A stretch of DNA of 64,000 nt from an uncultured Anaeroplasmatales bacterium (GTDB taxonomy: Bacteria; Bacillota_I; Bacilli_A; Acholeplasmatales; JAEDCM01): contig CAZWLD010000003.1 of assembly GCA_964634685.1 (NCBI GenBank), forward strand, positions 784 to 64,783, given 5' to 3'. The position numbers and the translations under genes are program-made. This document shows, piece after piece, positions 12,701-64,000 of the stretch. Numbering within the stretch: the stretch's first letter is position 1; the number at the start of each line of letters is the position of its first letter. Under the pieces are notes generated by a model that saw only the letters and a list, made by a program, of their open reading frames with translations, made no database searches and was not told the DNA's origin.

Positions 12701-14765
12701 ATTGATATGTTAATGTGTTTGCCGCAACAGGATCAACTACACCTAAGACTTCACGAACATATTGCTTAACAACAACAGTTGAACCGGCAGTATTAGGAGA
12801 AGCCATTGAGGTACCACTCATTAATACATACTTATTACTTTCAGCATCAGCATATGGATATGAACTCCAGACTTCTCCACCAGGAGCGGTAATTTCTGGT
12901 TTTAATTTAAGGTTAACATCACCCCAAGATGAGAAGATTGACATATCAGGGATTGTTTTTTGATTAGCAGGATCAACAGTTAATGTTTTTGTATCTGCAG
13001 CTGCTAAAGCATCTCCATATTCCTTTGTAACGGCACAAATAGGGAATGTAGCAAGCCTAGAATATTCAGTAACAACATTTCCTTCTTCATCAGTAACATC
13101 GATTGCTTCTGCTACAGGGCTTAGTGCACCAGCTGCATTGTTATAAATTACACAAGCGATAGCTCCAGCATTTAAAGCATTGAAAGCTTTATCTTGGAAA
13201 GAAAGTGATCCACGTTGAACTAAGGCAATTTTTCCTGTAACATCAACAGCAGCAAATTCTTCGGCTGAACCAAGACCACAATCAACATATTCATAAGTTC
13301 CTTTACCATTGGCATTACAGAAATCACGCATAAAGTCACCATAAACATTGTTAGTTTGGTCTTTTACAGACTCATTATAATACATTTCAGTTCCATCAGC
13401 GCTAACTAGCTTATATGCTGCAACATTTAAGGTATCAATACTTGCGACTGTAAGTGATGCTGGATAACTACTTGGAGAACCGATTGAACCGATATTATAG
13501 CCACTAGTTGTACCATAGTTTCCATACATACCACCATATGAAGAGCTATATGAGTTTCCTGCTGAAACACATAAAGCGATACCTTGAGCTACAGTAGCCT
13601 CATAAATAGCATCAATTGGTGTAAATGTATCAGTATCATAATCTACCATTGGCTCATAGAAGCTAAATCCAGATGCTGAACCTAAGCTCATATTGATAGT
13701 ATCAACACCAAGCAAAGTTGCATCCTCAATAGCAGCTAAGATATCAACGGTAGCCGCACCATTGTCGTTATCAGAGAAAACCTTGAAAATAGCTAATTGC
13801 GCATCCTTAGCAATACCAAAGAAATCAACACCGTTGTTTCCGGCAACAGTACCAGCAACGTGAGTTCCGTGACCATTTCCAAATTCCTCTAATGTTTCAA
13901 AGCATGGAGTTACATTGCAATCATTATCAGCATAGTCGAAGGCATAAGCAACCTTATTACCAACAACAACATCAGCAACAGCAAGAGTTCTTGCTTCTTC
14001 TCCTTCGCCAACAGTTTCATATCTTTCCTTAGCATTTAAACTAGCAAGAACAGCTTCAACATCAGAAGATGTAAGAGCAGGTGTTCCTGTATAGAATTCA
14101 TCACTGAAGGCCTCATGATCAACCATTAATCCGGTATCAATGATAGCCGCAACCATACCTGAACCAGTATATTCAAGATCGGTACCATTCATCTCACCAC
14201 GACCAGTGCTTGTACCATTTGCATCGTAGGATACAACATCACTAGCATCAAGGCTATAGATTTGAGATAGATAGACACCTTCAACTCCACTAATCTTGGA
14301 AATTGACTTGATATCCTTAACTTTAACAGTCATTGCAAAACCGTTAAATAAATTTGTATAAGAATACTTATATTCAGGCTTATAGGCTAAACCTAATTTA
14401 TTAATTGAATTTTTAACCTTTGTTTGAGTTGCTAATATTTCACCAACGGCCTTAACGCCATCAGTTGTATTAACATATTCAGACAATTTTTTGTTTACTG
14501 ATACCTTTGAAACCAAAGCGTCACCTTTTGTTTTAACAATTACATCAACAAAAGAATCTTCATCAAGCTCAACGATATCATCATCGGCAACAACACTAGC
14601 ATTTAAAAGATTCGCAAAGATATCTCTTTCCTTGTCTCTTTCAACTTGAGTGGCTGTCGAAGCGATTGTTTTAACATTTTTCGCAAGAACACCAGTTGTC
14701 GCTAAGGTCATAACACCAAGAGCAACTGCTGTCAATGCGGTTGTTAATTTTTTCAAAACTTTCAT
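9774..14765 (-). CDS. Cell-surface S8 serine proteinase (lactocepin/C5a-peptidase-like) with PA domain, short BspA-LRR insert, Ala-rich coiled-coil stalk and C-terminal TM anchor
   Basis: Signal peptide; triad IIDTG / HGTHVAGT / GTSMASP; PA insert (GKIALVQRG); IPDGVVAIANGVF LRR; about 200 aa of A/E/Q/K heptads; hydrophobic C-tail ending KFKKAN. Confidence 0.9.
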   Translation of the reverse strand: MKVLKKLTTALTAVALGVMTLATTGVLAKNVKTIASTATQVERDKERDIFANLLNASVVADDDIVELDEDSFVDVIVKTKGDALVSKVSVNKKLSEYVNTTDGVKAVGEILATQTKVKNSINKLGLAYKPEYKYSYTNLFNGFAMTVKVKDIKSISKISGVEGVYLSQIYSLDASDVVSYDANGTSTGRGEMNGTDLEYTGSGMVAAIIDTGLMVDHEAFSDEFYTGTPALTSSDVEAVLASLNAKERYETVGEGEEARTLAVADVVVGNKVAYAFDYADNDCNVTPCFETLEEFGNGHGTHVAGTVAGNNGVDFFGIAKDAQLAIFKVFSDNDNGAATVDILAAIEDATLLGVDTINMSLGSASGFSFYEPMVDYDTDTFTPIDAIYEATVAQGIALCVSAGNSYSSSYGGMYGNYGTTSGYNIGSIGSPSSYPASLTVASIDTLNVAAYKLVSADGTEMYYNESVKDQTNNVYGDFMRDFCNANGKGTYEYVDCGLGSAEEFAAVDVTGKIALVQRGSLSFQDKAFNALNAGAIACVIYNNAAGALSPVAEAIDVTDEEGNVVTEYSRLATFPICAVTKEYGDALAAADTKTLTVDPANQKTIPDMSIFSSWGDVNLKLKPEITAPGGEVWSSYPYADAESNKYVLMSGTSMASPNTAGSTVVVKQYVREVLGVVDPVAANTLTYQLLMGTATVVANEDGNVYSPRKQGAGLVNLAAATTTKQYITVDGTDRVKLELGKDASKTGVYEMTFNLVNMDEANAASFDISTLVMGLDTNYGVSLEEFDCVLSDSLVEYSVAGAGSLAGSVVTVNANGTAKVTVTVTLSDEDKESYDFIFKYGTYIEGFVSLTGDVTLSVPFLAFYGDYDASPAFDIAPWEEVMDFGQDFISKDGLTVTSLFLQNGKFYTIDQSTFAEEVFNFKKGYEPAPFDGTFVINGAVNQNSNFGTFYGIYSYQFSMLKNVDYQEFSVYDKVTGENLSPFDYNYFLRQSYFLPQYSAFNSYTYSNFYANMNKFLPDYMKNNMEFEVVMDAEWTGSDGLTYSDSQSIDIVVDQELSTMLDHKITQEGDKYYLEVTYWDNYYVQAICLYDAEFNSYFDVASTATEKNQVVTQKIDITDIYDDAAANGGFYLGFVDYAFNENDYVIEIGAEAEPTSYALNQNTVNVTTAEGTPDPGAPEFVVNASNVLTAYNGEGGNVVIPDGVVAIANGVFAGNETLGSVTLPASLKRIGENAFNNCPNLRYVVCKGDAVPVLVGGTFTENGYLAYTTFTNSTTEFVSPSEETKSIGNVKFVMLKDLKTNPSYDLFVSKDVLTTDYVKDFNTNLPQNYEVGAHWMADFTDVLAGQFPAGTFAPDELVVYDGEDLDIAKVQEEVNSCKDYTSLTLADKEVVATIRAHYESLTETQKASITNIHYLEFAENYITVLGVLAEAQAEKAAAEEAKTAALAAQAAAEAAQEAAEAAKTEAETLKAQAAAAQTAAEEAQAKAVAAQTAAEEAQTAAETAQAAAEAALASATATKEEVAVLKAAALAAKNEAETLKAQALAAQTAAEAAKADAESLRTQALAAQAAAEVARNEANTLKDAALAAKNAAEASQNATDADKAAATDAQAKAEAAQAAAEAALKAATAKANTAQVCMVVSIVFMVLTIAGGAALVFVKFKKAN

Positions 14766-39175: not shown

Positions 39176-40510
<1,335 letters not shown>

Positions 40511-40583
40511 TTATTATATACTATTTCTTTTTTAAAATAAATAGAAAAATATAAATATTAGAAAAAGTAAGCGTTTTGCAAAG

Positions 40584-40616
40584 AAATAGGAACACCATAG
40601 AGATGTTCCTATTTTT
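40584..40616. terminator. Terminator after the giant LRR gene
   Basis: AAATAGGAACA / TGTTCCTATTT stem. Confidence 0.7.
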
Positions 40617-40654
40617 AGTAAGAAATACAGATTTTGAATTTTGTTATTTAAAAT

Positions 40655-43600
40655 CTATCCTAGAATTTGTTCTTTTGTTTTTGCATAAACAACATTAGCA
40701 TTAATTTGATTAACAACATTTACGCTTGTTGATGTGATGTTTCCAACTTGAGCGCTTGTCATTCCACCGGTAATGGTATTAATAGTCGTGATTTCACCAG
40801 TCGATCCATTATATTCAAATACTGACCAAAGACAGCCATTACCGCTTGGCGCATCAAATTCTTGAACTAAGGCTCCATTAATGTATAATGCAACATGAGC
40901 ATCAGAGGTTGAAATTCCATTTGAAGTTGTACTTCCACCATGGGTATAATCATAAACACTATAGCGATAGATTCCTTCTTGAAGTTCAAGAACTGTAATA
41001 ACCTCAGGGCCAAAGCTTGTTGTATCATCAATATCTAAATTTGTTCCTGTAGTTGGATCAACCTTGTTATAGTAATAAATATGATATGAATCAGTGCCAT
41101 TTGTATATGTCATATGTGAATCTAAATCCTTTGGATTTTCTCCCCATGTTAACACTACAATCATTTCACGGTCACTAAATTGATCAAGGATATCCATTTC
41201 AAGACTATTTAAGATAATTTCTTCATCACCATCAACTTCAATCTCAATTTGTTTTGAATAGCTACCGCTCGTAACATTTAAAACGTATGTTTCATTTGGA
41301 ATATTTTCAAAGCCAGCGCCGTAATATGTGCTAAGACCGCTATATAAAACATTACCAAATTCATCATTTAAGGTTGCTACGACCTCTAATCTTTCATTAT
41401 CACTGCCTAAAACTGTTACTCTTACAAGGTTTCCATCAACAAATCGAATTTCATAGCTACCAGCATTGTTATTCCAATTTGTTGCCTTTGTAATAGCATT
41501 CCATTCGGTTTCTAATCCGCGGAAGTAAATTAATTCAAGATTACTTGCCCCTGAGATAACATTGTCCCCAATGTTTTCCAAAGAAGCTGGTAAAGATATT
41601 TCTTTGATAGTTGTCAAATTACTAAATGCACCATATAAAACATCGGTTGCTCCTGAAATAATTTCAATTCTTTCTAAACCTGAAGGAATATAATAAGTTA
41701 CTGATTGTGTATCTGTGTATGATTGACTAACGGCAACACTTCCTGTATATGAGGTTTTACCAAAGATTACGCCAAATAATGTTGCGGCAGTTGGTGTAAT
41801 TGAATAACCATCAATTCCAACAAATGGCAATGAAATCTTTGTAACAGAACTACAGCCTTTAAACATTCCTTCTGCTAAAACCATTACCGTTGATGGAACT
41901 CTAATTTCATTAGCGTTACTACAATTTACAAAGGCATTAGATCCGATGGTCATTAAGCCTTCCTTCATAATGATTTCTTCAAGTGAAGAACAATTATAGA
42001 AGGCATATTCTGCGATTGTTAACACATTTCCAGGAATATCAAATTCCTTCAATGCAGTACAATTATAGAAAGCATAATCAGCAATTGTTTTGACTCCATC
42101 TCCACCTGTTACATATTGTAAGCTTGTACAATTATAGAACATTTTTGTTCCTATTAGACTTAAGCTATTTCCTAGATGGATACTTACTAATCCAGATCCT
42201 TCAAACACATTATTTCCAACATTCGTAATTGAATCAGGAATTGTTATACTCTTAATTGCTTTACAATTATAGAAGGCATAATCTCCTAAAGTAAGAAGAT
42301 TTTCATTTAAAATCACATTTTCAAGCTTTGTACAGCCATAGAAGGTGTATGCTCCAATTGCGGTTAGAGTTGAAGGAATTTCAATTCTTTCAAGTGATGT
42401 ACAGCCTCTAAAAGCACTAGCACCTAAATCAGTAATTTCTCCTAATTCAATATAGGTTAATTTTGTACAACCGTAGAAGGCTTCAGCGCCAATAATTTGA
42501 GCGGTTGAAATTGATAATCCTGTCAAAGCTGTACAATTTTTAAATGCACCAGTACCAATTGATTTAACATTACCAAGGGTTACATTGGCTAATTTATTAC
42601 AGCCTAAGAATACATAATTTCCTAGCTTTTCAATTCCTGAACCAATTTCTACTGATGCTAAAGAAGTACATCCATTAAATGCATAATCTCCAAGAGCAGT
42701 AATACCATTTCCAATTCTTATTCCTGTTAAGGAAGCACACTTAGCAAAAGCATAATTTCCAATTGTTTTAAGTGAATCAGCTATTCTAACTGAGGTAATC
42801 TTTGTATTATAGAACGCATATTGACCAATGCTTTCAATACTACTACCAAATTTAATTCCAGATAAATTTGTACAACCATAGAAAGCTCTATTCGCAATAC
42901 TTTGAACATTATCAGGTATTACAATTTGTGTGAAATTAGTACAACCTTCAAAGGCACTTTCACCAATACTTAATAATCCATTAGATAATGTTATCGATGA
43001 TATACCTGTACAACCATAGAAAGCATTTGCGCCGATCGTTGTTACATATTCTGGTAAAGTAAGACCAGTTAACTTCGAACATTTATAGAAAGCATATGTT
43101 CCAATTGTATTCAATTTTGAGCCAAAAGTAACAGTTCCTAAATTTGAACAGCCATTAAACGCATAATCTCCAATCGTTTTAAGGTTTTCGCCCAAACTAA
43201 CAGTAACTAAACCACTACAATTATTGAATGCGTAGCTACCTAATGTTGTGACACTATCGGGAATTGTAAATGAGGTTAAACCAGTGCATCCATCAAATGC
43301 ATAGGAACCGATACTTGTAATTTCGCCTCTACATTCAACTGTTCTTAAATTTGATAATCCACTAAACATACTATTAGGTATTGAAGTAATTCCACTACCC
43401 AAAACAATAGTTTCTAAACCGCTACATCCTCTTAATGCAGTTGAATCAATTGATGTAACACTATCAGGAATAACTAAATTAATAATATTTTTACAATTCA
43501 TAAATGCTCGTTCTCCTATACTTGTAATTGAATCAGAGAAGGATAAACTTGATAAATTTGTACAACCATCAAATGCATAGCTTGAAATTTTCGTAGGACC

Positions 43601-46600
43601 CACAACACTAATATTTGTTAAATTTGAGCAATTTTGGAACAAGTAGTCTGACATCGTTCCGTTTCCTGTTAAATTAACAATTCTTAAAGAAGATGGTACA
43701 TAATAAGTTGTATAATTCTGCACAGTGGATGTACCACCAGTATAGCTAGTTGTACCAAAAATATATCCAAAAGTATTCCCATTTAAAAGTGACAACGGTA
43801 ATGATAATTCATTTAAACTTGTGCATCCTTTGAGAGCTCCACTTATTTCACTACTAGTTGCGCCAACATACTTAACACTTTCAGGAATAATGATTTTTGT
43901 CAAGTAAGAACAATCTCTAAATGCATCAGAATAATATATTTGATTTGTTGTATCCTTTAATTCAAATGCTCCGGTATTATCTGTTGGTTTACCAAAATAT
44001 ATTTTGTTATTAATTAAATAATCATCCACAATTAAATTACTTGAAATTAATGTATCAACAATAACATCATTATTGTCTCCTATATATCCCAAAAGAGTAT
44101 CTTCACTTATATGTATTTCTATTAAATTTACACATCCATTAAATGCAGATGAACCAATATAGTTTACACTAGTTGGGATTTCCATGCTTATTCCTTTATA
44201 TCCACTAAATGCATATTCTCCTATGCTTGTTATTGTTGGATTATCCCATACTATATCACAAGTACAATTATAGAATACATATTCTCCTATGCTTGTTACA
44301 CTAGTTGGGATTTCTATACTTGTTAAACCGCTACAACCTTCAAATGCATAGTTTCCAATACTCGTTACACTTGAAGGAATTGTTATACTTGCTAATCCAC
44401 TACAATCATAGAATGCATGATCTCCTATACTTGTACAGCCTTCTAATATTTTTACTGTTTTCAAGCAGCTTGGAACATAATCCGCATTACGAAAAGAGCT
44501 GCTAGCACCAAATATATATCCTAAATATGATTCGTAGAAACCATTTCCGATAAATGGTAAAGTAATACTTTCCAAACTACAGCCACTAAATGCACTAATT
44601 CCTATTTCTGTTACACTTGATGGAATTACAATGCTTGTTAAACTACTACAATTCCTAAAAGCATAGTTTCCTATACTTTTTACGCTTGTTGGGATATCTA
44701 TGCTTGTTAATCCACTACAACCACTAAATGCACATTCTCCTATGCTTGTTACGCTTGTTGGGATTTCCATACTTATTCCTTTATATCCACTAAATGCATA
44801 TTCTCCTATATTTGTTATTGTTGGATTATCCCATACTATATCGCAAGTACAATTATAGAATGCACATTCTCCTATGCTTGTTACATTCTCTGAAACAGTA
44901 ATATTTACTAAATCACTACAATTATAGAACGAACCATACAATAAACTTCCTCCTAATACTGTTACACTAGTTAATGTTGATGGTATGTAATAAGTATCAG
45001 TTCTTGTACTTAAACCATAGTAATATTGTTCTGTGGCAACTCCTCCATCATAACTAATAGTACCAAATATATATCCAAATGGATATTGATAAGTGTCACT
45101 TGATGTTTTTATTCTTTCACCTATAAATGGTAATGTTATTGAAACTAAGCTACTACAACCACTAAATGCATATTCTCCTATGCTTGTTACGCTTGATGGG
45201 ATATCTATACTTGCTAAGCCACTACAACCTTTAAATGCATAATTTCCTATCCTTGTTACGCTTGATGGAATGTCCACACTGGTCAATCCTGTACAATTAT
45301 AGAATGCATAATTTCCTATGCTTGTTACGCTTGTTGGGATTTCCATACTTATTCCTTTATATCCACTAAATGCATATTCTCCTATACTTGTTATTGTTGG
45401 ATTATCCCATACTATATCGCAAGTACAATTTTTAAATGCATATATTCCTATGCTTGTTACACTAGTTGGGATATCTATGCTTGTTAATCCACTACAACCA
45501 CTAAATGCATATTCTCCTATACTTGCTACACTTGAAGAAATTACTACGGTTGATAAGTTACTACAACCACTGAATGAATACCCCTCTATACTTGTTACGC
45601 TATTTGGGATTTCTATGCTTGTTATACTACTACAACCACTAAATGCATATTCTCCTATGCTTGTTACACTAGTTGGGATATCTATTCTTGTTAATCCACT
45701 ACAACCACTAAATGCATATTTTCCTATGTTTGTTACGCTTGATGGAATGTCCACACTGGTCAATCCTATACAATTATAGAATGCATAATTTCCTATGCTT
45801 GTTACATTCTCTGAAACAGTAATATTTACTAAATCACTACAATTATAGAACGAACCATACAATAAACTTCCTCCTAATACTGTTACACTAGTTAATGTTG
45901 ATGGTATGTAGTATGTTCCAGATGTTATGCTACTAGTACTTGAACCATAGTAATATTGTTCTGTGGCAACTCCTCCATCATAACTAAAAGTACCAAATAT
46001 ATATCCAAATGGATATTGATAAATGTCACTTGATGTTTTTATTCTTTCACCTATAAATGGTAATGTTATTGAAACTAAGTTACTACAACCAATAAAGGCT
46101 GATTTTCCTATGCTTGTGACTCTTGTTGGAATTTCTATATTTGATAAATTACTGCAATATGCAAATGCATAATTTCCTATCCTTGTTACGCTTGATGGAA
46201 TTGTTATACTTGCTAATCCACTACAACCATAGAATGTATGATCTCCTATGCTTGTTACACTTGTTGGAATATCTATGCTTGTTAATCCACTACAACCTTC
46301 AAATGCAGAATTTCCTATGCTTGTTACACTTGATGGAATATCTATGCTTGTTAATCCACTACAACCTTTAAATGCGTAATTTCCTATGCTTGTTACATTA
46401 TCTGAAACAGTAATATTTACTAAATCACTACAATTATAGAACGAACCATACAATAAACTTCCTCCTAATACTGTTACACTAGTTAATGTTGATGGTATGT
46501 AATAAGTACTACTTTCTCTACTTGTTGTACTTGAACCATAGTAATATTGTTCTGTGGCAACTCCTCCATCATACCTAATAGCACCAAATATATATCCAAA

Positions 46601-48337
46601 TGGATATTGATAAGTGTCACTTGATGTTTTTATGCTGTCGCCTATAAATGGTAATGTTATTGAAACTAAGCTACTACAACCACTAAAGGCTGATTTTCCT
46701 ATGCTTGTTACACTAGTTGGGATTTCTATACTTGTTAAACCGCTACAACCTTCAAATGCATAGTTTCCAATACTCGTTACACTTGAAGGAATTGTTATAC
46801 TTGCTAATCCACTACAACCACTAAATGCTGATTCTCCTATACTTGTACAGCCTTCTAATATCTTTACTGTTTTCAAACCACTTGGAACATATTCATTCTT
46901 AAATGCAGATCCATACGGACCAAATATATATCCTAAATATGATTTGCCGGAACCATTTCCGATAAATGGTAAAGTAATACTTTTTACTCCACTACAACCA
47001 CTAAGTGCATATTCTCCTATACTTGTTACGCTATTTGGGATTTCTATGCTTGTTAAACTAGTACAATCAGCGAATGCATATACTCCTATACTTGTTACGC
47101 TATTTGGAATTTCTATGCTTGTTATACTACTACAACCACTAAATGCATGATTTCCTATACTAGTACAGCCTTCTAATATCTTTACTGTTTTCAAACCACT
47201 TGGAACACATTCACTATTAAGTCCAGTTCCAGACGAACCAAATATATATCCTAAATATGATTTGCCGGAACCATTTCCGATAAATGGTAAAGTAATACTT
47301 TCTAAACTACTACAACCATAGAATGCATGATCTCCTATACTTGTTACGCTATTTGGGATTTCTATGCTTGTTATACTTCTACAACCACTAAATGCATATT
47401 CTCCTATACTTGCTACACTTGAAGAAATTACTACGGTTGATAAGTTACTACAACCACTGAATGAATACCCCTCTATACTTGTTACGCTATTTGGGATTTC
47501 TATGTTTATTAACTTACTACAGTTATAGAATACATATTCTCCTATACTAGTTACACTTGATGGGATTTCTATACTTGTTAAACTACTACAATTATAGAAT
47601 GAATACCCCTCTATACTTGTAACTCCCTCAGGGATTGTTATACTTGTCAATGAACTACAATTTTTAAATGCCAACCTTTCTATGCTTGCTACACTTGAAG
47701 AAATTACTACGGTTGATAAGTTACTACAACCAGAAAATGCACCTTCTCCTATGCTTGTAACGCTTGATGGAATTTCTATACTTGTTAAACTAGTACAATC
47801 AGCGAATGCAAAACCTCCTATTTTTGTTATGCTAGTTGGAATAGTTATACTTATTAAGTTACTATAATCAACGAATGCAGAACGTCTAATTTCAGAAACA
47901 GGTAGTCCATGTACAGTAGATACTATGTTGAGAGAAAAACTAGCTTCATTCCATAAATTACATCCCACTACAACATAATAACTACTGTCTGCACTTAATG
48001 TATACCACACATTATCTATAAGCACACTATCACTATTGTTAGATTTTTCATATCCACAAACAGCACAAACACCATCCTCAAATTGATGTTTCTCTGAATC
48101 TTTGATTTCATTTACATGCTCGCAAGTTGCCGCATGCCAATGATAGACATCATTATAACTCCATTCACTCGAGTAGCTATGTGAATGAGTTGTCTGATTG
48201 TTATTAGTTGTCTGATCATTATTAGTATCAACAGGATAATCCGGTCTCACTGCTGTACCGCATGATGTTAATAAAAATGACACACTAATCATTAACATCA
48301 AAAGACAAATAATTGATAATCTTTTCCCTCTCCTCAT
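40655..48337 (-). CDS. 2560-aa BspA-type (LRR_5) surface lipoprotein with C-terminal YfaP/DUF2135-like domain
   Basis: LLTSC lipobox; His/Cys motif HWHAATCEH...CAVCG; dozens of IPxSVTSIGxxAFxxCxxL repeats; C-terminal VLTWGENPKDLDSH...DDTTSFGPE. Confidence 0.9.
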   Translation of the reverse strand: MRRGKRLSIICLLMLMISVSFLLTSCGTAVRPDYPVDTNNDQTTNNNQTTHSHSYSSEWSYNDVYHWHAATCEHVNEIKDSEKHQFEDGVCAVCGYEKSNNSDSVLIDNVWYTLSADSSYYVVVGCNLWNEASFSLNIVSTVHGLPVSEIRRSAFVDYSNLISITIPTSITKIGGFAFADCTSLTSIEIPSSVTSIGEGAFSGCSNLSTVVISSSVASIERLAFKNCSSLTSITIPEGVTSIEGYSFYNCSSLTSIEIPSSVTSIGEYVFYNCSKLINIEIPNSVTSIEGYSFSGCSNLSTVVISSSVASIGEYAFSGCRSITSIEIPNSVTSIGDHAFYGCSSLESITLPFIGNGSGKSYLGYIFGSSGTGLNSECVPSGLKTVKILEGCTSIGNHAFSGCSSITSIEIPNSVTSIGVYAFADCTSLTSIEIPNSVTSIGEYALSGCSGVKSITLPFIGNGSGKSYLGYIFGPYGSAFKNEYVPSGLKTVKILEGCTSIGESAFSGCSGLASITIPSSVTSIGNYAFEGCSGLTSIEIPTSVTSIGKSAFSGCSSLVSITLPFIGDSIKTSSDTYQYPFGYIFGAIRYDGGVATEQYYYGSSTTSRESSTYYIPSTLTSVTVLGGSLLYGSFYNCSDLVNITVSDNVTSIGNYAFKGCSGLTSIDIPSSVTSIGNSAFEGCSGLTSIDIPTSVTSIGDHTFYGCSGLASITIPSSVTRIGNYAFAYCSNLSNIEIPTRVTSIGKSAFIGCSNLVSITLPFIGERIKTSSDIYQYPFGYIFGTFSYDGGVATEQYYYGSSTSSITSGTYYIPSTLTSVTVLGGSLLYGSFYNCSDLVNITVSENVTSIGNYAFYNCIGLTSVDIPSSVTNIGKYAFSGCSGLTRIDIPTSVTSIGEYAFSGCSSITSIEIPNSVTSIEGYSFSGCSNLSTVVISSSVASIGEYAFSGCSGLTSIDIPTSVTSIGIYAFKNCTCDIVWDNPTITSIGEYAFSGYKGISMEIPTSVTSIGNYAFYNCTGLTSVDIPSSVTRIGNYAFKGCSGLASIDIPSSVTSIGEYAFSGCSSLVSITLPFIGERIKTSSDTYQYPFGYIFGTISYDGGVATEQYYYGLSTRTDTYYIPSTLTSVTVLGGSLLYGSFYNCSDLVNITVSENVTSIGECAFYNCTCDIVWDNPTITNIGEYAFSGYKGISMEIPTSVTSIGECAFSGCSGLTSIDIPTSVKSIGNYAFRNCSSLTSIVIPSSVTEIGISAFSGCSLESITLPFIGNGFYESYLGYIFGASSSFRNADYVPSCLKTVKILEGCTSIGDHAFYDCSGLASITIPSSVTSIGNYAFEGCSGLTSIEIPTSVTSIGEYVFYNCTCDIVWDNPTITSIGEYAFSGYKGISMEIPTSVNYIGSSAFNGCVNLIEIHISEDTLLGYIGDNNDVIVDTLISSNLIVDDYLINNKIYFGKPTDNTGAFELKDTTNQIYYSDAFRDCSYLTKIIIPESVKYVGATSSEISGALKGCTSLNELSLPLSLLNGNTFGYIFGTTSYTGGTSTVQNYTTYYVPSSLRIVNLTGNGTMSDYLFQNCSNLTNISVVGPTKISSYAFDGCTNLSSLSFSDSITSIGERAFMNCKNIINLVIPDSVTSIDSTALRGCSGLETIVLGSGITSIPNSMFSGLSNLRTVECRGEITSIGSYAFDGCTGLTSFTIPDSVTTLGSYAFNNCSGLVTVSLGENLKTIGDYAFNGCSNLGTVTFGSKLNTIGTYAFYKCSKLTGLTLPEYVTTIGANAFYGCTGISSITLSNGLLSIGESAFEGCTNFTQIVIPDNVQSIANRAFYGCTNLSGIKFGSSIESIGQYAFYNTKITSVRIADSLKTIGNYAFAKCASLTGIRIGNGITALGDYAFNGCTSLASVEIGSGIEKLGNYVFLGCNKLANVTLGNVKSIGTGAFKNCTALTGLSISTAQIIGAEAFYGCTKLTYIELGEITDLGASAFRGCTSLERIEIPSTLTAIGAYTFYGCTKLENVILNENLLTLGDYAFYNCKAIKSITIPDSITNVGNNVFEGSGLVSIHLGNSLSLIGTKMFYNCTSLQYVTGGDGVKTIADYAFYNCTALKEFDIPGNVLTIAEYAFYNCSSLEEIIMKEGLMTIGSNAFVNCSNANEIRVPSTVMVLAEGMFKGCSSVTKISLPFVGIDGYSITPTAATLFGVIFGKTSYTGSVAVSQSYTDTQSVTYYIPSGLERIEIISGATDVLYGAFSNLTTIKEISLPASLENIGDNVISGASNLELIYFRGLETEWNAITKATNWNNNAGSYEIRFVDGNLVRVTVLGSDNERLEVVATLNDEFGNVLYSGLSTYYGAGFENIPNETYVLNVTSGSYSKQIEIEVDGDEEIILNSLEMDILDQFSDREMIVVLTWGENPKDLDSHMTYTNGTDSYHIYYYNKVDPTTGTNLDIDDTTSFGPEVITVLELQEGIYRYSVYDYTHGGSTTSNGISTSDAHVALYINGALVQEFDAPSGNGCLWSVFEYNGSTGEITTINTITGGMTSAQVGNITSTSVNVVNQINANVVYAKTKEQILG
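44890..46501. repeat. Three DNA-identical 100-bp blocks within larger repeated LRR modules
   Basis: CTGAAACAGT...GATGGTATGTA is identical at 44890-44989, 45811-45910 and 46402-46501. Confidence 0.9.
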
Positions 48338-48489
48338 TTTTCTTTGGAATAATCCTATTGTACTTAAGATTATTCTCCTCCTTCATTACTAAATTAAAGC
48401 GATATTATGAGTACAACATAATCAAATATCTTACATACTTTTAACCTTAAAATTAAGTTTTAATATATATAATATATTTATCCATTTTC

Positions 48490-48516
48490 ATTTTAACCCC
48501 CCCCGACCTTTGTCAA
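48490..48516 (-). promoter_or_regulatory. Candidate promoter of the giant LRR gene with a G8 tract in a 15-nt spacer
   Basis: TTGACA (48516-48511), AAGGTCGGGGGGGGT, TAAAAT (48495-48490). Confidence 0.6.
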
Positions 48517-48668
48517 GATTTTTGGAAAATATTGTTATATTTTGTCTAAATTTCGATTCAAAGTCCCTGTTATATTGTAGTTGTAATATAAAGAAGACAA
48601 TAGAGAGTATAAATAAAAAAAGTCTCTTTATTAAAAAGAGAACTCAAATATTTCTAAACAAATCTAAA

Positions 48669-48845
48669 TTAATTTTTTTTGTAAAATGAAACAATGATTT
48701 TATTTGCTTCCTTAAAGCTTATCTCACCATTCATTGCCCTTGCAAGGATTTCTTTTACACGATTCTCAACAATACATCCTTCTTGCTCAACCATTCCAAT
48801 AGCTGATCTTAAAATTACTTCCTTTGTCGCCTTTTTTTCTTCCAT
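48669..48845 (-). CDS. VbhA-like antitoxin (58 aa, below the ORF-track cutoff)
   Basis: Hand translation MEEKKATKEVILRSAIGMVEQEGCIVENRVKEILARAMNGEISFKEANKIIVSFYKKN; EG and GEIS motifs; AAAGGTG RBS. Confidence 0.7.
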   Translation of the reverse strand: MEEKKATKEVILRSAIGMVEQEGCIVENRVKEILARAMNGEISFKEANKIIVSFYKKN

Positions 48846-48964
48846 AAATTATTCACCTTTCTTTGCCTTTCTTATACATATATTATAACATATTTATATA
48901 TATAAATCTACTCAAATCAGGGCTTTCAGAAAAAAAGGCCTATTTTTTTTAGGCCTTTTAAGAA

Positions 48965-50461
48965 CTATTTAATCAATACTTTTCCTGTCATTTCCTTTGG
49001 AATCTCAACACCCAATAAAGTTAACATTGTTGGAGCTAAATCGGCTAAAGTTCCATCGCTTACTTCATAGTCTGGAGAAGTGACAATTAATGGTACTTTG
49101 TTTGTTGTATGAGCAGTGAATGGCTTACCATTTTCATCAATTAGCTTTTCAGCATTTCCATGGTCAGCGGTAATTAAACAAACACCACCTAATGAAACAA
49201 CCATATCAACAACCTTCATTAAGCAATCACCAACGGCTTCTACTGCTTTAACAGCCGCATCAAAGACTCCAGTGTGTCCAACCATATCACAGTTGGCATA
49301 ATTTAAAATAATGGTATCTGGACAATCATTTTGTAACTCGTATAATACCTTTTCTGTTACCTCATAAGCGCTCATTTCAGGTTGTAAATCATAAGTCGCA
49401 ACCTTTGGTGAATTGACTAAAACACGCTTACTTCCAGGAATATCTTTATCTTCTCCTCCATCAAAGAAGAAGGTTACATGCGCATATTTTTCCGTTTCCG
49501 CAATTCGAAGCTGAGTCAAACCAGCCTTAGATACTACTTCGCCATAGGTATTTGATAAATCCTGTAAGCCAAATGCTAAATCACCCTTTACAGAATCAGC
49601 ATAAAGCATCATTGAAACAAAGTAAATGTCATGTGGTCCCTTTGATGTATCAACACCATTAGCTCCTGGATTAGAGAAAGCAGTCGCAATTCTAATTGCA
49701 CGGTCAGGTCTAAAGTTCGCAAAAATAATTGAATCGCCATCGGTAATCATACCATTTTCATCAGTGATGAATGGCACAACAAATTCATCCGTTACATCCT
49801 TTTCATATGAAGCCTTTAAGCCACAAATTGGGCAAGCAAATTTTTCACCAACGCCAATTGTCATCGCATCATAGGCCTTTTGAAGACGATCCCAGTTATT
49901 ATCACGATCCATTGCATAATAACGACCAGAAACAGTCGCGATTTTTCCACCCTTATCCATAATTGCTTGTAAATATTTTTCAGCTGATTTAGGTGGTACG
50001 TCACGTCCATCAAGGAAAGCATGGACATAAACATTCTCAACACCTTGTTGCTTCGCTAAATCAAGTAAAGCAAAAATATGATTCATATGGGAGTGAACTC
50101 CACCATCGCTACATAAAGCAAAAATATGTAATTTTGAATTGTTCTTCTTAACACGGTCGGTAGCCTTTAGGAATGCTGGATTTGTAAAAAAGCTTCCATC
50201 CTTAATTGCTACATTGATTCTTGTTAATGATTGATAAACCGTACGACCAGCTCCAAGTGTTAAATGGCCAACCTCCGAATTACCCATTTGGCCATCTGGA
50301 AGACCTACAGCCTCACCACTAGCCTCTAAGGTCGCATGGGGATAAGCCTCATAAAGCATATCATAATTTTTCTTATTTGCTGCCATAATGGCATTTCCTT
50401 CTTTAGAATCTGATAAACCAAAACCATCCATTATGATTAATGCAACAGGTTTTTTACTCAT
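48965..50461 (-). CDS. gpmI: 2,3-bisphosphoglycerate-independent phosphoglycerate mutase
   Basis: IMDGFG, QMGNSEVGH, AETEKYAHVTFF, DMVGHTG, TADHGNAE. Confidence 0.97.
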   Translation of the reverse strand: MSKKPVALIIMDGFGLSDSKEGNAIMAANKKNYDMLYEAYPHATLEASGEAVGLPDGQMGNSEVGHLTLGAGRTVYQSLTRINVAIKDGSFFTNPAFLKATDRVKKNNSKLHIFALCSDGGVHSHMNHIFALLDLAKQQGVENVYVHAFLDGRDVPPKSAEKYLQAIMDKGGKIATVSGRYYAMDRDNNWDRLQKAYDAMTIGVGEKFACPICGLKASYEKDVTDEFVVPFITDENGMITDGDSIIFANFRPDRAIRIATAFSNPGANGVDTSKGPHDIYFVSMMLYADSVKGDLAFGLQDLSNTYGEVVSKAGLTQLRIAETEKYAHVTFFFDGGEDKDIPGSKRVLVNSPKVATYDLQPEMSAYEVTEKVLYELQNDCPDTIILNYANCDMVGHTGVFDAAVKAVEAVGDCLMKVVDMVVSLGGVCLITADHGNAEKLIDENGKPFTAHTTNKVPLIVTSPDYEVSDGTLADLAPTMLTLLGVEIPKEMTGKVLIK

Positions 50462-61101: not shown

Positions 61102-64000
61102 TCACCACAATTTTGGAAGATTGTTATCAAAGTACCAATATCCATCTTGCTTGGATTGCGAATAATAATAAAGATTAGCTTCTAGTAATGATTTATTATT
61201 GTCTTCGACATTGATATTATTCCATTCCTCTTCCGTTCCAGAATAACAGATATTTCTTAAGTTAGGACAATAACTAAAAGCTCCAGAGCCAATATCAGTT
61301 AAACCTTTTGGTAAAACAATGCAAGTCAAATTGTTGCAAAAAGCAAAGGCATTATACTCAATCGTCTTAACATTTTCAGGAATAGTAATCATCCTTAAGC
61401 TTTTACAAGCTTCGAAAGCAAATAAACCTACATATTCAATACTATTAGGAAGATTAACATTTTTTAAGTTATGACAATTCCTAAAGGTCGAATCCTCAAT
61501 TCTTTGGATACTAGAAGGAATCGTAATACTTTCAAGCTCATAACAAGAATCAAAGGCACTACTGCCAATATATGTTACTGAATCAGGAATCACTATTCTC
61601 TTTAGCTTAACGCAGCCACTAAATGCGGAGCCAGAAATCGTATTAACGCTATTAGGAAGAATAATTTCCTCTAATTCCGAACAATTACTAAAAGCTGAGT
61701 ATCCAATTGATGTTATATTATTATGAAGTTCAATCGACTTAAGCTTACAGCCCATAAATACTTCATCGCCAATACTTGTTACACTATCAGGTATTTGAAT
61801 ATTAGTTAAATTTTCACAAAAAGCAAAGGCCCTATTTCCAATTTCCTTTACTCCGTAAGGAATCGTAATACTTACCAAATTCGTATTTTTATAAAAGGCA
61901 CTTTCATAAATACTATAATTATTACCCAAAATATTATCTGGCAAAATAAGATTTGAAGCATTACCAACGTATTGAATTAAATAATATTCTGAATTATCAT
62001 CACAAATAAAGATACATCCATCTATGGTTTCAATTATACTATCACCCAAGGAATTATGAATAGCCTTTGCATAATAGCCAACGTAACCATTCGAATTATC
62101 ATTTCTTTTAATTGATAAAGATGGTGATAAATTATAAACCTCCACTAATCTTATACAACCATAAAAGGCTTGCCCTTGGATTGATGTGACTCCTTCCGGA
62201 ATTGTAATACTTAAAAGTGATGAACATGAATTAAAGGCTTTATCCTTAATCAAGGTTACAGTCTTTGGCAATTCAATCTCCGACAAGGAAGTACAACAAA
62301 GGAAAGTCCCTTCTTCAATACACGTTATGCCTTGAGGTAAGCTAACACTCTTAAGATTCTCACAATTAGAAAAGGCATATGCGCCAATTTCCTTAACTGA
62401 ATTCGGAACAATTATTTCTTCAATCAAGCTACCAGAAAAAGCATATGGGTAAATTGAATAATCCTGTCCTTGGAAGGAATCTGGTAAGGTAATTATTTTA
62501 TCATCACCAAGATATTGGAATAAATAAGGTTTATCTAAATCAAGGAAAATATAATCGCCTACAACTTCAATAATGCTTTCCTCATCTAAAGATTGATGAA
62601 TAGCCTTGGCATAATATCCTATATAGGTATCATCATAAGAATCAATACTTATATTCGATAAATTATACACCTCTACTAAACGAGTACAGCCATAAAAAGC
62701 ACCTCTATCAATCGTATTAACACTTTCAGGTATTATAATCTTTTTTAGATTAATACAATTGCTAAAAGCCCCAAATTCAATTACCTTTACATCTCCGCCA
62801 AGAATAATATTACTAAGCTTCACGCAATCAGAAAAAGCTCTTTCACTAATCTTATAAACTCTATCCTCAATGGTTACACTTTCTAGATTACAGCATCGAC
62901 TAAAGGCTCCTTGGCCGAAATAATAAACACTTCCAGGTATAATTATTTCCGATAAATTCTGACAATTGGAAAATGCATATTCACCAATGTTTGTTAAAGA
63001 ATTAGGCAAATCGATATTGATTAATGATTCATTTCTTGAAAATACACCTTCACCAATCTCTTTTATTGAGGAAGGTAAATTCACTTGTGATAATCTTCGA
63101 CATTCACTAAAGGTGTAATTCTCAATTTTCGTAATACTATTTGGAATAGTTATCTCCTTTAAGCCACTACAAGAAAAAGCATATTTACCGATACTAGTAA
63201 TACTATCAGGTAAAGCTATTCTTTCGGCATCGCACCCATAAAAGGCATAAGGACAAATGGTTGTGCAGCCATCTTGGATTTCAATTTCCTTAATCTTTGT
63301 ATATTTAAAGGTATATGGTGCAATGTATTTCACTGATGAAATAACTAATTTCTCATCGTTTATTTCCTGGCAATTGGTAAAGGCACCACCACAAATCACT
63401 TGGGTTCTCTCATCGAGATCAAAGCTCGTAATCATATTATTAACGGGTCTAATTAAGGCAAGGCCTCCATTTGATAATGGCAAATATAAATTTTGATTGA
63501 TTTTTTGATAACATAAACGATTATCGCCATCAAAGGTCTGATAGCCTAAATATTCTAAAGCACCAGGTAATTTAATATAGCTTAAGCGATAACAATTAAG
63601 AAAAGCAGAATCCTCAATTATCTTTACGCCCTCCCCTACTTCAACCTTAATTAAATCCTTACAATTTTTAAAGGCTCCATTGCCAATTATTTCAATCGAA
63701 TCAGGAAGATAAACATATTTTATTTTCGCATCTAAAAAGGCCTCGCTAGCTATTTCTGTGACCTGATAGCCATCAATATATTCAGGAATTCTGACATTTG
63801 CTTCTTTTCCATGATATTTCATTATTCTTGCTTTTTCTAAATCGATTGGTTGAATTTCAAACAAGAAATCAAATGAATCTTCACTTAAAGTAAAATCCTT
63901 ATATAAAGCGATATTATCATAATCTGCTTCTTTGAAAAAATCTTCAGTAATCAAATATGTATCATTTAATTCAATAGAATCCTTGGCAGGTTGATAAGCG
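61102..64000 (-). CDS. Second BspA-type LRR surface protein, 5' end beyond the window
   Basis: Frame stays open to the window edge; IPxSVxxIGxxAFxxC repeats; two YAKAIH...YL(F/I)QY modules. Confidence 0.88.
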   Translation of the reverse strand, partial: AYQPAKDSIELNDTYLITEDFFKEADYDNIALYKDFTLSEDSFDFLFEIQPIDLEKARIMKYHGKEANVRIPEYIDGYQVTEIASEAFLDAKIKYVYLPDSIEIIGNGAFKNCKDLIKVEVGEGVKIIEDSAFLNCYRLSYIKLPGALEYLGYQTFDGDNRLCYQKINQNLYLPLSNGGLALIRPVNNMITSFDLDERTQVICGGAFTNCQEINDEKLVISSVKYIAPYTFKYTKIKEIEIQDGCTTICPYAFYGCDAERIALPDSITSIGKYAFSCSGLKEITIPNSITKIENYTFSECRRLSQVNLPSSIKEIGEGVFSRNESLINIDLPNSLTNIGEYAFSNCQNLSEIIIPGSVYYFGQGAFSRCCNLESVTIEDRVYKISERAFSDCVKLSNIILGGDVKVIEFGAFSNCINLKKIIIPESVNTIDRGAFYGCTRLVEVYNLSNISIDSYDDTYIGYYAKAIHQSLDEESIIEVVGDYIFLDLDKPYLFQYLGDDKIITLPDSFQGQDYSIYPYAFSGSLIEEIIVPNSVKEIGAYAFSNCENLKSVSLPQGITCIEEGTFLCCTSLSEIELPKTVTLIKDKAFNSCSSLLSITIPEGVTSIQGQAFYGCIRLVEVYNLSPSLSIKRNDNSNGYVGYYAKAIHNSLGDSIIETIDGCIFICDDNSEYYLIQYVGNASNLILPDNILGNNYSIYESAFYKNTNLVSITIPYGVKEIGNRAFAFCENLTNIQIPDSVTSIGDEVFMGCKLKSIELHNNITSIGYSAFSNCSELEEIILPNSVNTISGSAFSGCVKLKRIVIPDSVTYIGSSAFDSCYELESITIPSSIQRIEDSTFRNCHNLKNVNLPNSIEYVGLFAFEACKSLRMITIPENVKTIEYNAFAFCNNLTCIVLPKGLTDIGSGAFSYCPNLRNICYSGTEEEWNNINVEDNNKSLLEANLYYYSQSKQDGYWYFDNNLPKLW

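What the first reader, a model, noticed from the sequence alone, without database searches (positions are those of the whole stretch)
44300..47400. LRR modules with DNA-identical frameworks flanking hypervariable loops
Seen: module B occurs three times with a 100-bp identical block (44890, 45811, 46402) and a second identical block ACCATAGTAATATTGTTCTGTGGCAACTCCTCCATCATA. The short intervening segments differ in sequence and length: GSSTTSRESSTYY / GSSTSSITSGTYY / GLSTRTDTYY, and GAIRY / GTFSY / GTISY. Module A behaves the same way: YIFG-SSGTGLNSEC / PYGSAFKNEY / ASSSFRNADY-VP. Inference: identity at silent sites implies recent duplication or gene conversion, and variation focused in Ser/Thr/Tyr loops suggests a diversified binding surface on an LRR scaffold, loosely analogous to variable lymphocyte receptors.
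Basis: partly seen in the sequence, partly recalled or inferred. Interest (0 to 1): 0.72.

Follow-up and report, generated by a model that had tools for sequence, protein, structure and literature searches.

The report
Repeat-homogenised LRR adhesin with variable loops
The repeats lie inside one giant BspA-type leucine-rich-repeat surface lipoprotein gene of a gut bacterium, where gene conversion has made the module frameworks DNA-identical and left short exposed loops different. This is a real but fairly ordinary pattern for a repeat-rich adhesin, not a lamprey-like receptor-diversifying system.

Summary
Three copies of a 101-108-nt block and of a 40-nt block are DNA-identical, and they flank short segments that differ in sequence and length. 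All of it lies in one 2,560-aa ORF (40655-48337, minus strand). The protein is a lipoprotein with about 70 BspA/TpLRR (Pfam LRR_5) repeats.

"Module B" is a conserved insert found in 2,872 database cluster representatives. No Pfam, NCBIfam or PDB entry covers it. AlphaFold2 (pLDDT 97.7) folds it as a helix plus a long beta-hairpin, and the variable loop is the hairpin tip.

Silent-site counts reverse the emphasis of the finding. The B loops (pS 0.57) are about as diverged as neighbouring ordinary repeats (pS 0.27-0.49). It is the frameworks that are unusually uniform (pS 0.02-0.05). Identical 121-126-nt tracts also join ordinary repeats elsewhere in the array. The best reading is intragenic gene conversion (concerted evolution) that skips the loops.

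Selection on the loops is possible: the A1/A2 loops differ by 8 nonsynonymous and 0 synonymous changes.

The 64-kb window holds no donor cassettes, reverse transcriptase or recombinase. The VLR analogy is therefore not supported as a mechanism.

A G8/G9 tract in the promoter spacer suggests phase-variable expression.

The parts
40655..48337 (-). Single 2,560-aa ORF: a BspA/TpLRR-type (LRR_5) surface lipoprotein that contains the whole finding
   Evidence: ORF list. Pfam LRR_5 scores 1882.8 bits in 22 stretches. The repeat period is 69 nt. There are 29 TpLRR pattern matches and a lipobox LTSC at aa 23-26.
46415..46660 (-). Module B copy 1 (aa 560-641). Loop 1 is AIR (46574-46582). Loop 2 is SSTTSRESST (46505-46534), which forms the hairpin tip and the start of strand 2.
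   Evidence: In the AF2 model, aa 592-600 and 607-615 form a beta-hairpin with its tip at aa 601-606; pLDDT 97.7.
45824..46069 (-). Module B copy 2 (aa 757-838). Loop 1 is TFS (45983-45991). Loop 2 is SSTSSITSGT (45914-45943).
   Evidence: There are 13 nt differences from the B1 loop within 36 nt, and 5 conserved residues use different codons.
44903..45139 (-). Module B copy 3 (aa 1067-1145). Loop 1 is TIS (45053-45061). Loop 2 is LSTRTDT (44993-45013), which is 9 nt shorter.
   Evidence: An exact 225-nt contig in run X3 spans 44870-45094.
47153..47296 (-). Module A copy 1 (aa 348-395). The loop is SSGTGLNSEC (47207-47236).
46835..46978 (-). Module A copy 2 (aa 454-501). The loop is PYGSAFKNEY (46889-46918).
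   Evidence: AF2 gives a helix followed by a low-confidence coil (pLDDT 63-74).
44423..44566 (-). Module A copy 3 (aa 1258-1305). The loop is ASSSFRNADY (44477-44506).
44186..45430 (-). Three copies of module C (NCTCDIVWDNPTIT[SN]IGEYAFSGYKGIS) at 45347-45430, 44771-44854 and 44186-44269. They are nearly DNA-identical and have no variable loop.
44889..46508 (.). Identical framework blocks: 44889-44996 = 46401-46508 (108 nt) and 45810-45910 = 46401-46501 (101 nt); 40-47-nt blocks at 45013, 45943 and 46534
44285..47504 (.). Further identical tracts between ordinary LRR units: 45492-45617 = 47379-47504 (126 nt) and 44285-44405 = 46697-46817 (121 nt)
   Evidence: Shuffle test p <= 1e-4.
43670..43807 (-). 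Diverged module-B-like insert (aa 1511-1556, ...FGYIFGTTSYTGGTSTVQNYTTYYVPSSL...)
41660..41836 (-). Second diverged module-B-like insert (aa 2168-2226)
   Evidence: It is conserved in P0002, P0010 and L002.
48490..48516 (-). Candidate promoter of the gene: TTGACA (48516-48511), then a 15-nt spacer containing G8 (48504-48497), then TAAAAT (48495-48490)
   Evidence: Sequence. It is the longest G/C run in the window. The tract is G9 in run X1 and G8 in run X2.

Best explanation
The region is the N-terminal repeat array of a giant cell-surface lipoprotein of the BspA/TpLRR (Pfam LRR_5) class. The host is a low-GC gut bacterium, probably from the Erysipelotrichales/Coprobacillaceae.

The LRR solenoid is interrupted by family-wide conserved insert modules. 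Module B is a roughly 59-aa insert: a short helix followed by a long two-stranded beta-hairpin. Module A is a roughly 25-aa insert: a helix followed by a flexible loop.

The array grew by in-frame segmental duplication. It is kept uniform by intragenic gene conversion between repeats (concerted evolution), which produces perfect 100-126-nt tracts. The long, strongly constrained A and B frameworks are the best substrates and are almost DNA-identical. The short loops (the hairpin tip in B, the coil in A) lie between conversion tracts and keep older divergence. Either heterology stops the tracts there, or selection removes events that would erase loop differences.

Shown: the family assignment, the identical tracts, the multi-copy depth, the contrast in silent-site divergence, and the predicted exposure of the loops. 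Inferred: conversion rather than nucleotide-level selection, any adaptive value of loop diversity, and an adhesin/ligand-binding role.
For: Family and architecture.

Identical tracts far longer than chance, including between ordinary LRRs.

Silent-site contrast: framework pS 0.017-0.052; B1/B2 loop pS 0.57; flanking LRRs pS 0.27-0.49. Fisher p = 0.0017.

Incongruent histories:
- Frameworks group B2 with B3, but loop length and sequence group B1 with B2.
- A fourth copy, B4, seen only in run contigs, has a loop 7 nt from B1's. B2's loop is 13 nt from B1's. Yet B4 differs at 3 sites in the inter-loop block where B1 = B2 = B3.

Module B is a conserved sub-domain. There are 113 distinct copies in the top 120 homologues, and 2,872 cluster representatives match at E <= 1e-3, often several copies per protein.

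AF2 pLDDT is 97.7 with the hairpin tip at the variable segment. The module A loop is a coil with pLDDT 63-74.

Possible selection on loops: the A1/A2 loops show 8 nonsynonymous and 0 synonymous differences, against 0 and 1 in 38 framework codons. The two module A copies of the relative L002 show 9 nonsynonymous and 1 synonymous.

Framework depth is 2.4-4.3 times single-copy depth.
Against: No direct observation of a conversion event exists. Only one assembly and fragmented, bubble-popped contigs were available, so the module order and the allele states in other strains are uncertain.

The loop samples are tiny (7-10 codons). The 8:0 ratio alone is not significant (about p = 0.1).

In another species (L001) the module B copies are 12-21% diverged evenly along their length. 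Strong homogenisation is therefore not a general property of the module.

A recent duplication of the module B core followed by loop replacement would give a similar picture.
Confidence: 0.6

Rival explanations
1. Programmed diversification. The identical frameworks serve as homology arms for segmental gene conversion that swaps loop cassettes between modules or from copies elsewhere in the genome. This would give rapid surface variation, like tprK, vlsE or pilE, or loosely like VLR assembly.
For: The architecture is variable segments bracketed by identical sequence. A fourth module B copy exists outside the window at about single-copy depth. The X1 contig path joins the B1 loop 2 to a B3-type loop 1. 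The gene also has a candidate phase-variable promoter.
Against: No exact repeat of 25 nt or more of this gene lies outside the CDS in 64 kb. No recombinase, reverse transcriptase or deaminase is present in any ORF of 150 aa or more. Only 3-4 copies exist, and the three in the window all sit in frame in the expressed gene. In a strain from a different study (X4) the B1 loop differs by a single nucleotide. The X1 loop swap can be an artefact of bubble popping in Logan contigs. Framework-pattern scans of the genome and metagenome collections found nothing.
Confidence: 0.08
2. Recent duplication followed by neutral fast loop turnover. The modules were copied recently, and the Ser/Thr-rich low-complexity loops then changed quickly by replication slippage and relaxed constraint, with no conversion and no selection.
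For: The loops are Ser/Thr-rich and vary in length (a 9-nt indel in B3). At family level the loop tolerates many sequences.
Against: The B1 and B2 loops have the same length but differ at 13 of 36 nt, and 5 conserved residues use different codons. This is not a slippage pattern. It would need a mutation rate more than 10 times higher, confined to 30 nt. Ordinary LRRs flanking the modules are also far more diverged than the frameworks, so the modules are not simply young copies of larger segments.
Confidence: 0.2
3. Assembly artefact. The identical blocks or the module order were created by mis-assembly of a repetitive gene or of mixed strains.
For: Short-read contigs break at every repeat. Runs X1 and X2 hold only 63% of the 31-mers of 44300-47400, although they hold 100% of the unique 3' part of the gene. 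No contig with the B2 loop was seen in any run.
Against: Framework k-mer depth is 2.4-4.3 times single-copy depth. The ORF stays open and in 23-aa register for 2,560 codons. All exact repeats are shorter than 127 nt, so large k-mers or paired reads can resolve them. The B1 and B3 loops with their flanks are confirmed by independent contigs. Logan contigs drop bubble variants by design.
Confidence: 0.07
4. Targeted hypermutation of the loops by a diversity-generating retroelement or a similar mutator.
For: Only the localised clustering of differences.
Against: The window has no reverse transcriptase and no template repeat. The loop differences involve all base types and are not adenine-specific. 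The targets are not C-terminal lectin-fold or Ig-like domains.
Confidence: 0.01

Closest known systems
BspA / TpLRR-type leucine-rich-repeat surface proteins (Pfam LRR_5; Tannerella BspA, T. pallidum TpLRR 6mlx, pneumococcal PcpA 4cp6, gut-bacterial structures 4gt6 and 4fs7)
   Same: The repeat has the same 23-residue unit and matches the TpLRR pattern and the Pfam model. The predicted fold matches these structures. The protein has a secretion/lipoprotein signal and very large, repeat-rich paralogues (pattern from PMC2843621).
   Different: It carries conserved insert modules (A, B, C). The sequence and profile searches of solved chains and the Pfam and NCBIfam scans found nothing covering the module B insert; A and C were not searched against structures. 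No function has been tested.
Concerted evolution or concatenation of repeats inside bacterial surface-protein genes (for example the LRR concatenation model for Protochlamydia lgr genes, PMC2216083; identical tandem repeats of streptococcal alpha C/Rib proteins, from my own knowledge)
   Same: Both show in-frame duplication and homogenisation of repeat units. This gives DNA-identical tracts much longer than expected from the overall divergence.
   Different: Here the homogenised units are dispersed and not strictly tandem. Homogenisation is interrupted at short loop segments, which gives a framework/loop mosaic.
Segmental gene-conversion antigenic variation (T. pallidum tprK, PMC8480903 and PMC7593977; also vlsE, pilE and MgPa, from my own knowledge)
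   Same: Discrete variable regions are bracketed by conserved sequence within a surface protein.
   Different: No silent donor cassettes were found and no within-population hypervariability was shown. The variable segments number only 3-4 per type, and the three copies of each type in the window all lie inside the expressed gene.
Lamprey variable lymphocyte receptors (PMC11160967, PMC6995607)
   Same: Both use an LRR scaffold with variable residues and a protruding variable insert.
   Different: VLRs are assembled somatically from flanking LRR cassettes into an incomplete germline gene. This gene is complete, bacterial and of a different LRR class, and it has no cassette array or deaminase nearby.
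Slipped-strand phase-variable promoters (homopolymer in the -35/-10 spacer, as in Neisseria opc/porA and Mycoplasma vlp; from my own knowledge)
   Same: A G8 tract lies in a 15-nt spacer between TTGACA and TAAAAT. The tract is G9 in another sample of the same strain.
   Different: No expression data exist. Tract length was seen in only two contig sets.

Membership tests
BspA/TpLRR leucine-rich repeat proteins (Pfam LRR_5, PF13306) | Match to the Pfam LRR_5 model above its gathering score | tested here: met
   1882.8 bits against a cut-off of 27.7, in 22 stretches
BspA/TpLRR leucine-rich repeat proteins (Pfam LRR_5, PF13306) | [quoted passage not shown] | tested here: met
   29 pattern matches. 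The dominant start-to-start spacing is 69 nt.
BspA/TpLRR leucine-rich repeat proteins (Pfam LRR_5, PF13306) | LRR solenoid fold like the solved LRR_5 structures | tested here: met
   The AF2 model (pLDDT 97.7) matches 4gt6 (E 2.7e-10), 4fs7 and 6mlx by Foldseek. TM-scores are about 0.5 because of the insert.
BspA/TpLRR leucine-rich repeat proteins (Pfam LRR_5, PF13306) | Export to the cell surface | tested here: inconclusive
   The sequence has a hydrophobic N-terminus and a lipobox LTSC at aa 23-26. No dedicated signal-peptide predictor was run, and localisation is not testable here.
VLR-type combinatorial LRR assembly | Incomplete expressed gene plus arrays of silent donor LRR cassettes | tested here: not met
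   The gene is an uninterrupted 2,560-codon ORF. No repeat of 25 nt or more of it lies outside the CDS in the window. Framework scans of the genome and metagenome collections gave 0 hits.
VLR-type combinatorial LRR assembly | Associated AID/APOBEC-like deaminase or other dedicated enzyme | tested here: not met
   Pfam scans of all 40 other forward ORFs of 150 aa or more in the window found none. The rest of the genome was not seen.
Segmental gene-conversion antigenic variation (tprK/vlsE/pilE type) | Variable regions bracketed by conserved sequence in an expressed surface-protein gene | tested here: met
Segmental gene-conversion antigenic variation (tprK/vlsE/pilE type) | Silent donor cassettes elsewhere in the genome | tested here: inconclusive
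   None lies in the window. One extra module B copy (B4) exists outside it at about 1x depth, in unknown context.
Segmental gene-conversion antigenic variation (tprK/vlsE/pilE type) | Many variants of the variable regions within one population | not testable with these tools
   Only Logan contigs, which drop variants, were available for the runs that hold the strain.
Diversity-generating retroelement | Reverse transcriptase plus a template repeat, with differences at template adenines | tested here: not met
   No reverse transcriptase, no template repeat, and substitutions of all types
Slipped-strand phase-variable promoter | Homopolymer in the -35/-10 spacer whose length varies between cells or samples | tested here: met
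   G8 lies between TTGACA and TAAAAT. The tract is G9 in X1 and G8 in X2, and contigs break at the tract. The effect on transcription is not testable here.

The most novel reading that the evidence does not exclude
The A and B loops are real targets of diversification. Short gene-conversion tracts, primed by the identical frameworks, shuffle loop segments among the modules of this gene and copies such as B4 elsewhere in the genome. A poly-G phase-variable promoter switches the gene on and off. Together these would let a gut commensal vary an exposed beta-hairpin/loop surface on an LRR scaffold, to evade antibody or phage or to change ligand.
Probability: 0.1. Interest if true: 0.65.

Novelty: new member of a known kind. 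Interest (0 to 1): 0.3.

Why it matters
Giant BspA-type LRR proteins are among the largest and least understood surface proteins of gut Firmicutes. This analysis shows three things:
- A very common 64-residue insert (module B) is a distinct beta-hairpin sub-domain that no curated family or solved structure covers.
- Its tip is the variable element.
- Within one gene the frameworks can be homogenised to DNA identity while the tips are spared.

This points to the residues to mutate or graft when looking for ligands. It also warns that short-read assemblies of such genes collapse variants. As evolutionary biology it is a clean but unsurprising example of concerted evolution with islands that escape it.

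Tried and rejected
- **Framework pattern scans.** The gapped pattern CAATATTACTATGG-N{15,45}-TACATACCATCAAC gave 0 hits in both the GTDB species genomes and the JGI metagenomes. The genome is therefore not in either collection, and no genome-wide cassette search was possible.
- **Allele survey from public runs (X1-X8).** Only Logan contigs exist for these runs. They fragment at each repeat and pop bubbles, so the absence of the B2 and B3 loops in X1/X2 and the apparent B1 loop-1 swap cannot be trusted.
- **DGR idea.** Rejected: no reverse transcriptase, no template repeat, and no adenine bias.
- **Curated families for the module B insert.** Pfam and NCBIfam returned nothing. A PDB sequence search and a profile search also returned nothing.
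- **Literature search for the motif strings.** 0 papers.
- **Comparison gene L001 (P0011).** It did not reproduce the DNA-identical frameworks.
- **One mis-framed translation and two mis-framed family scans.** These were discarded.
Full report
**Where the finding lies**

The interval 44300-47400 is inside a single minus-strand ORF, 40655-48337, of 2,560 codons. The product starts with a hydrophobic leader and a lipobox (LTSC, aa 23-26). About 70 repeats of 23 residues follow. They match Pfam LRR_5 (BspA type) at 1882.8 bits and match the published TpLRR pattern 29 times (pattern from PMC2843621). After the repeats comes a C-terminal stretch of about 250 aa (from about aa 2306) that has no LRR_5 match and no other family hit.

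The neighbours are housekeeping genes: enolase just downstream, and phosphoglycerate mutase, ThrRS, SmpB, RNase R and ABC transporters elsewhere. The only related locus found in species-representative genomes is a Coprobacillus sp. MAG, 64% identical over the C-terminal 348 aa queried. The window is 33% GC. A gut member of the Erysipelotrichales is therefore likely, but this is tentative. The runs that contain the sequence are gut and faecal metagenomes, including pig and sheep.

**Checking the observation**

- The long block starts at 44889, 45810 and 46401. It is 101-108 nt long, and 120 nt for the pair 44870/45791.
- The 39-mer occurs three times and never in shuffles.
- Aligning the three module B copies as DNA shows about 320 nt of near identity. 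This is interrupted by one segment of about 30 nt that is almost unrelated and carries a 9-nt length difference, plus a 9-nt segment with 1-3 changes.
- Module A behaves the same way.

The blocks are not an assembly duplication. In run X1 single-copy flanks have word depth of about 80 and loop-bearing contigs 85-104. The shared framework contigs have depth 194-343.

**What the modules are**

Modules A, B and C are not peculiar to this gene.
- Module B has the consensus ITLPFVGxxxKTSSDTYQYPFGYIFG-TSS-YTGGxxTxQYYYG-SSTSSTTSxT-YYIPSSLKSVTV.
- It occurs as 113 distinct copies in the 120 best homologues.
- A profile of its 64-residue core finds 2,872 cluster representatives at E <= 1e-3 and 1,550 at E <= 1e-10, usually with 2-13 copies each.
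- Pfam and NCBIfam have no model for the insert. No PDB chain matches it by sequence or by profile.

AlphaFold2 with a 47-sequence alignment gives a very confident model (pLDDT 97.7, pTM 0.92).
- After the ITLP strand comes a short helix (FGYIF).
- Two nine-residue strands follow, GVATEQYYY and RESSTYYIP, joined by the tip GSSTTS.
- Extended strands then lead back into the solenoid.
The short loop sits just after the helix.

Foldseek places the model with solved LRR_5 proteins (4gt6, 4fs7, TpLRR 6mlx). Module A is predicted as a helix followed by a low-confidence coil (pLDDT 63-74).

**Are the loops hypervariable?**

Nei-Gojobori counts give the key result.

| Region | pS | pN |
|---|---|---|
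| Module B framework (86 codons) | 0.017-0.052 | 0.020-0.030 |
| B1/B2 hairpin-tip segment (10 codons) | 0.57 | 0.35 |
| Ordinary LRRs just upstream (66 codons) | 0.27-0.49 | about 0.18 |

Five residues conserved between the B1 and B2 loops use different codons. The loop DNA is therefore as old as the rest of the array, and the frameworks are anomalously young (Fisher p = 0.0017).

Perfect tracts of 126 and 121 nt also join ordinary LRR units 1.9-2.4 kb apart. The shuffle means are about 15-16 nt (p <= 1e-4).

The histories are incongruent.
- Frameworks pair B2 with B3, while loop length and sequence pair B1 with B2.
- A fourth copy (B4) is visible only in run contigs and is absent from the window.
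- B4's loop is 7 nt from B1's, whereas B2's is 13 nt from B1's. Yet B4 differs at three sites in the inter-loop block where B1 = B2 = B3.

This is the signature of patchy intragenic gene conversion that homogenises the long conserved frameworks and leaves the loops as islands.

The effect is specific to this gene. In the P0011 gene of another organism, six module B copies differ by 12-21%, spread evenly.

**Is there selection on the loops?**

There are hints only.
- A1 and A2 differ by eight single-nucleotide changes in ten loop codons. All eight are nonsynonymous. The 38 framework codons show none nonsynonymous and one synonymous.
- The two module A copies in the Coprobacillus MAG show 9 nonsynonymous and 1 synonymous in the core.
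- B4-like modules in other runs differ mainly in loop 1, hairpin strand 1 and the tip, with invariant flanks.

Against strong hypervariability:
- The family-wide loop has a Ser/Thr-rich consensus and only moderate entropy, similar to the x-positions of ordinary LRRs.
- Some homologues carry identical loops in duplicated modules.
- In a strain from a different study (X4) the B1 loop differs by one nucleotide, giving Glu to Lys.

**Mechanisms excluded or unsupported**

- No ORF of 150 aa or more in the 64 kb encodes a reverse transcriptase, recombinase, transposase or deaminase.
- No fragment of the gene is repeated outside the CDS.
- Loop substitutions are not adenine-specific.
- The framework pattern is absent from the two large collections scanned.
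- The VLR and tprK analogies (PMC11160967, PMC8480903) therefore describe an architecture, not a demonstrated mechanism.
- Contig data cannot show within-population heterogeneity. X1 and X2 carry 100% of the k-mers of the unique part of the gene but only 63% of those in the repeat region, which is consistent with bubble popping.

**A side observation that bears on function**

About 145 nt upstream of the ATG there is a perfect TTGACA, then a 15-nt spacer containing G8, then TAAAAT.
- The G8 is the longest G/C run in the window.
- Run X1 has G9 and run X2 has G8, although both hold every sampled word of the unique 2.8-kb 3' part of the gene. Contigs break at the tract.
- The surrounding 50-70 nt recurs in other contigs at depths (58-80x in X1, 9-11x in X2) close to the single-copy flanks.
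- This looks like a slipped-strand phase-variable promoter, possibly one of a family.

A metatranscriptome (X17) contains contigs about 95% identical to the 3' half of the gene. This is weak evidence of transcription.

**Verdict**

The first half of the interpretation (duplication or conversion) is supported. The second half (a hypervariable, VLR-like surface) is only weakly supported. The feature is a new member of a known kind: a BspA-type adhesin-like lipoprotein undergoing concerted evolution. An unannotated but widespread hairpin module carries the divergent tips.

Noticed in passing
window 48490-48516 (minus strand): TTGACA, then a 15-nt spacer containing G8, then TAAAAT, about 145 nt upstream of the LRR gene ATG. 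The G8 is the longest G/C homopolymer in the window. The tract is G9 in run X1 and G8 in run X2, and contigs break there. The surrounding 50-70 nt recurs in other contigs at similar or somewhat lower depth. This is a candidate slipped-strand phase-variable promoter, possibly one of a family.
   Followed up: partly
run contigs only (X1, X2, X4, X8), laid on window 46476-46608: A fourth module B copy (B4, ...GTNSYDGGVATKQYYYGSSTTSTKNGFYYIPS...) is present at about single-copy depth but is absent from the 64-kb window. Its genomic context is unknown.
   Followed up: partly
window 39176-50461: The 7.7-kb LRR gene sits between the phosphoglycerate mutase gene (48965-50461) and the enolase gene (39176-40507). 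These two are usually adjacent in Firmicutes (from my own knowledge), so this looks like an insertion into the glycolytic gene pair. A terminator-like hairpin follows the mutase gene, and a 57-aa ORF (about 48673-48846, minus strand) lies between it and the LRR gene.
   Followed up: no
window 44186-44269, 44771-44854, 45347-45430: A third conserved insert, module C (NCTCDIVWDNPTITSIGEYAFSGYKGIS), occurs three times with nearly identical DNA and no variable loop. Similar segments occur in homologues (for example P0011 and P0028).
   Followed up: no
window 48050-48187 (aa 51-96): An N-terminal His/Cys-rich motif (HSHSYSSEWSYNDVYHWHAATCEH...CAVCGY). Homologues P0055 and P0084 carry a close copy of it, alongside long tandem arrays of related Cys/His-rich segments (also in P0002 and P0007). 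No family hit.
   Followed up: no
window 40658-41422 (aa about 2306-2560): A C-terminal non-LRR domain (…DLDSHMTY…LDIDDTTSFGPEVITV…) is conserved in P0002, P0010 and the Coprobacillus MAG gene but has no Pfam or NCBIfam match.
   Followed up: partly
window 61102-63954 and 9774-14765: The window holds two more LRR_5 proteins. One is 950+ aa, lacks modules A and B and has a different insert (…VEVYNLS…GYYAKAIH…). The other is a 1,663-aa S8 subtilase with PA, Fn3-like and LRR_5 parts.
   Followed up: partly
L002 5299-5916: In the Coprobacillus sp. MAG, a serine recombinase/resolvase-like ORF (judged by eye from its N-terminal sequence, not scanned) lies directly after the orthologue-like LRR gene. 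The window has no equivalent.
   Followed up: no
L003 2794-2813: The same CTTGACAAAGGTC + poly-G (G9) motif lies upstream of a gene for a signal-peptide protein (possibly TasA-like, judged by eye, not scanned) in an unrelated, higher-GC metagenome contig. This may be chance, since about one random hit is expected.
   Followed up: no
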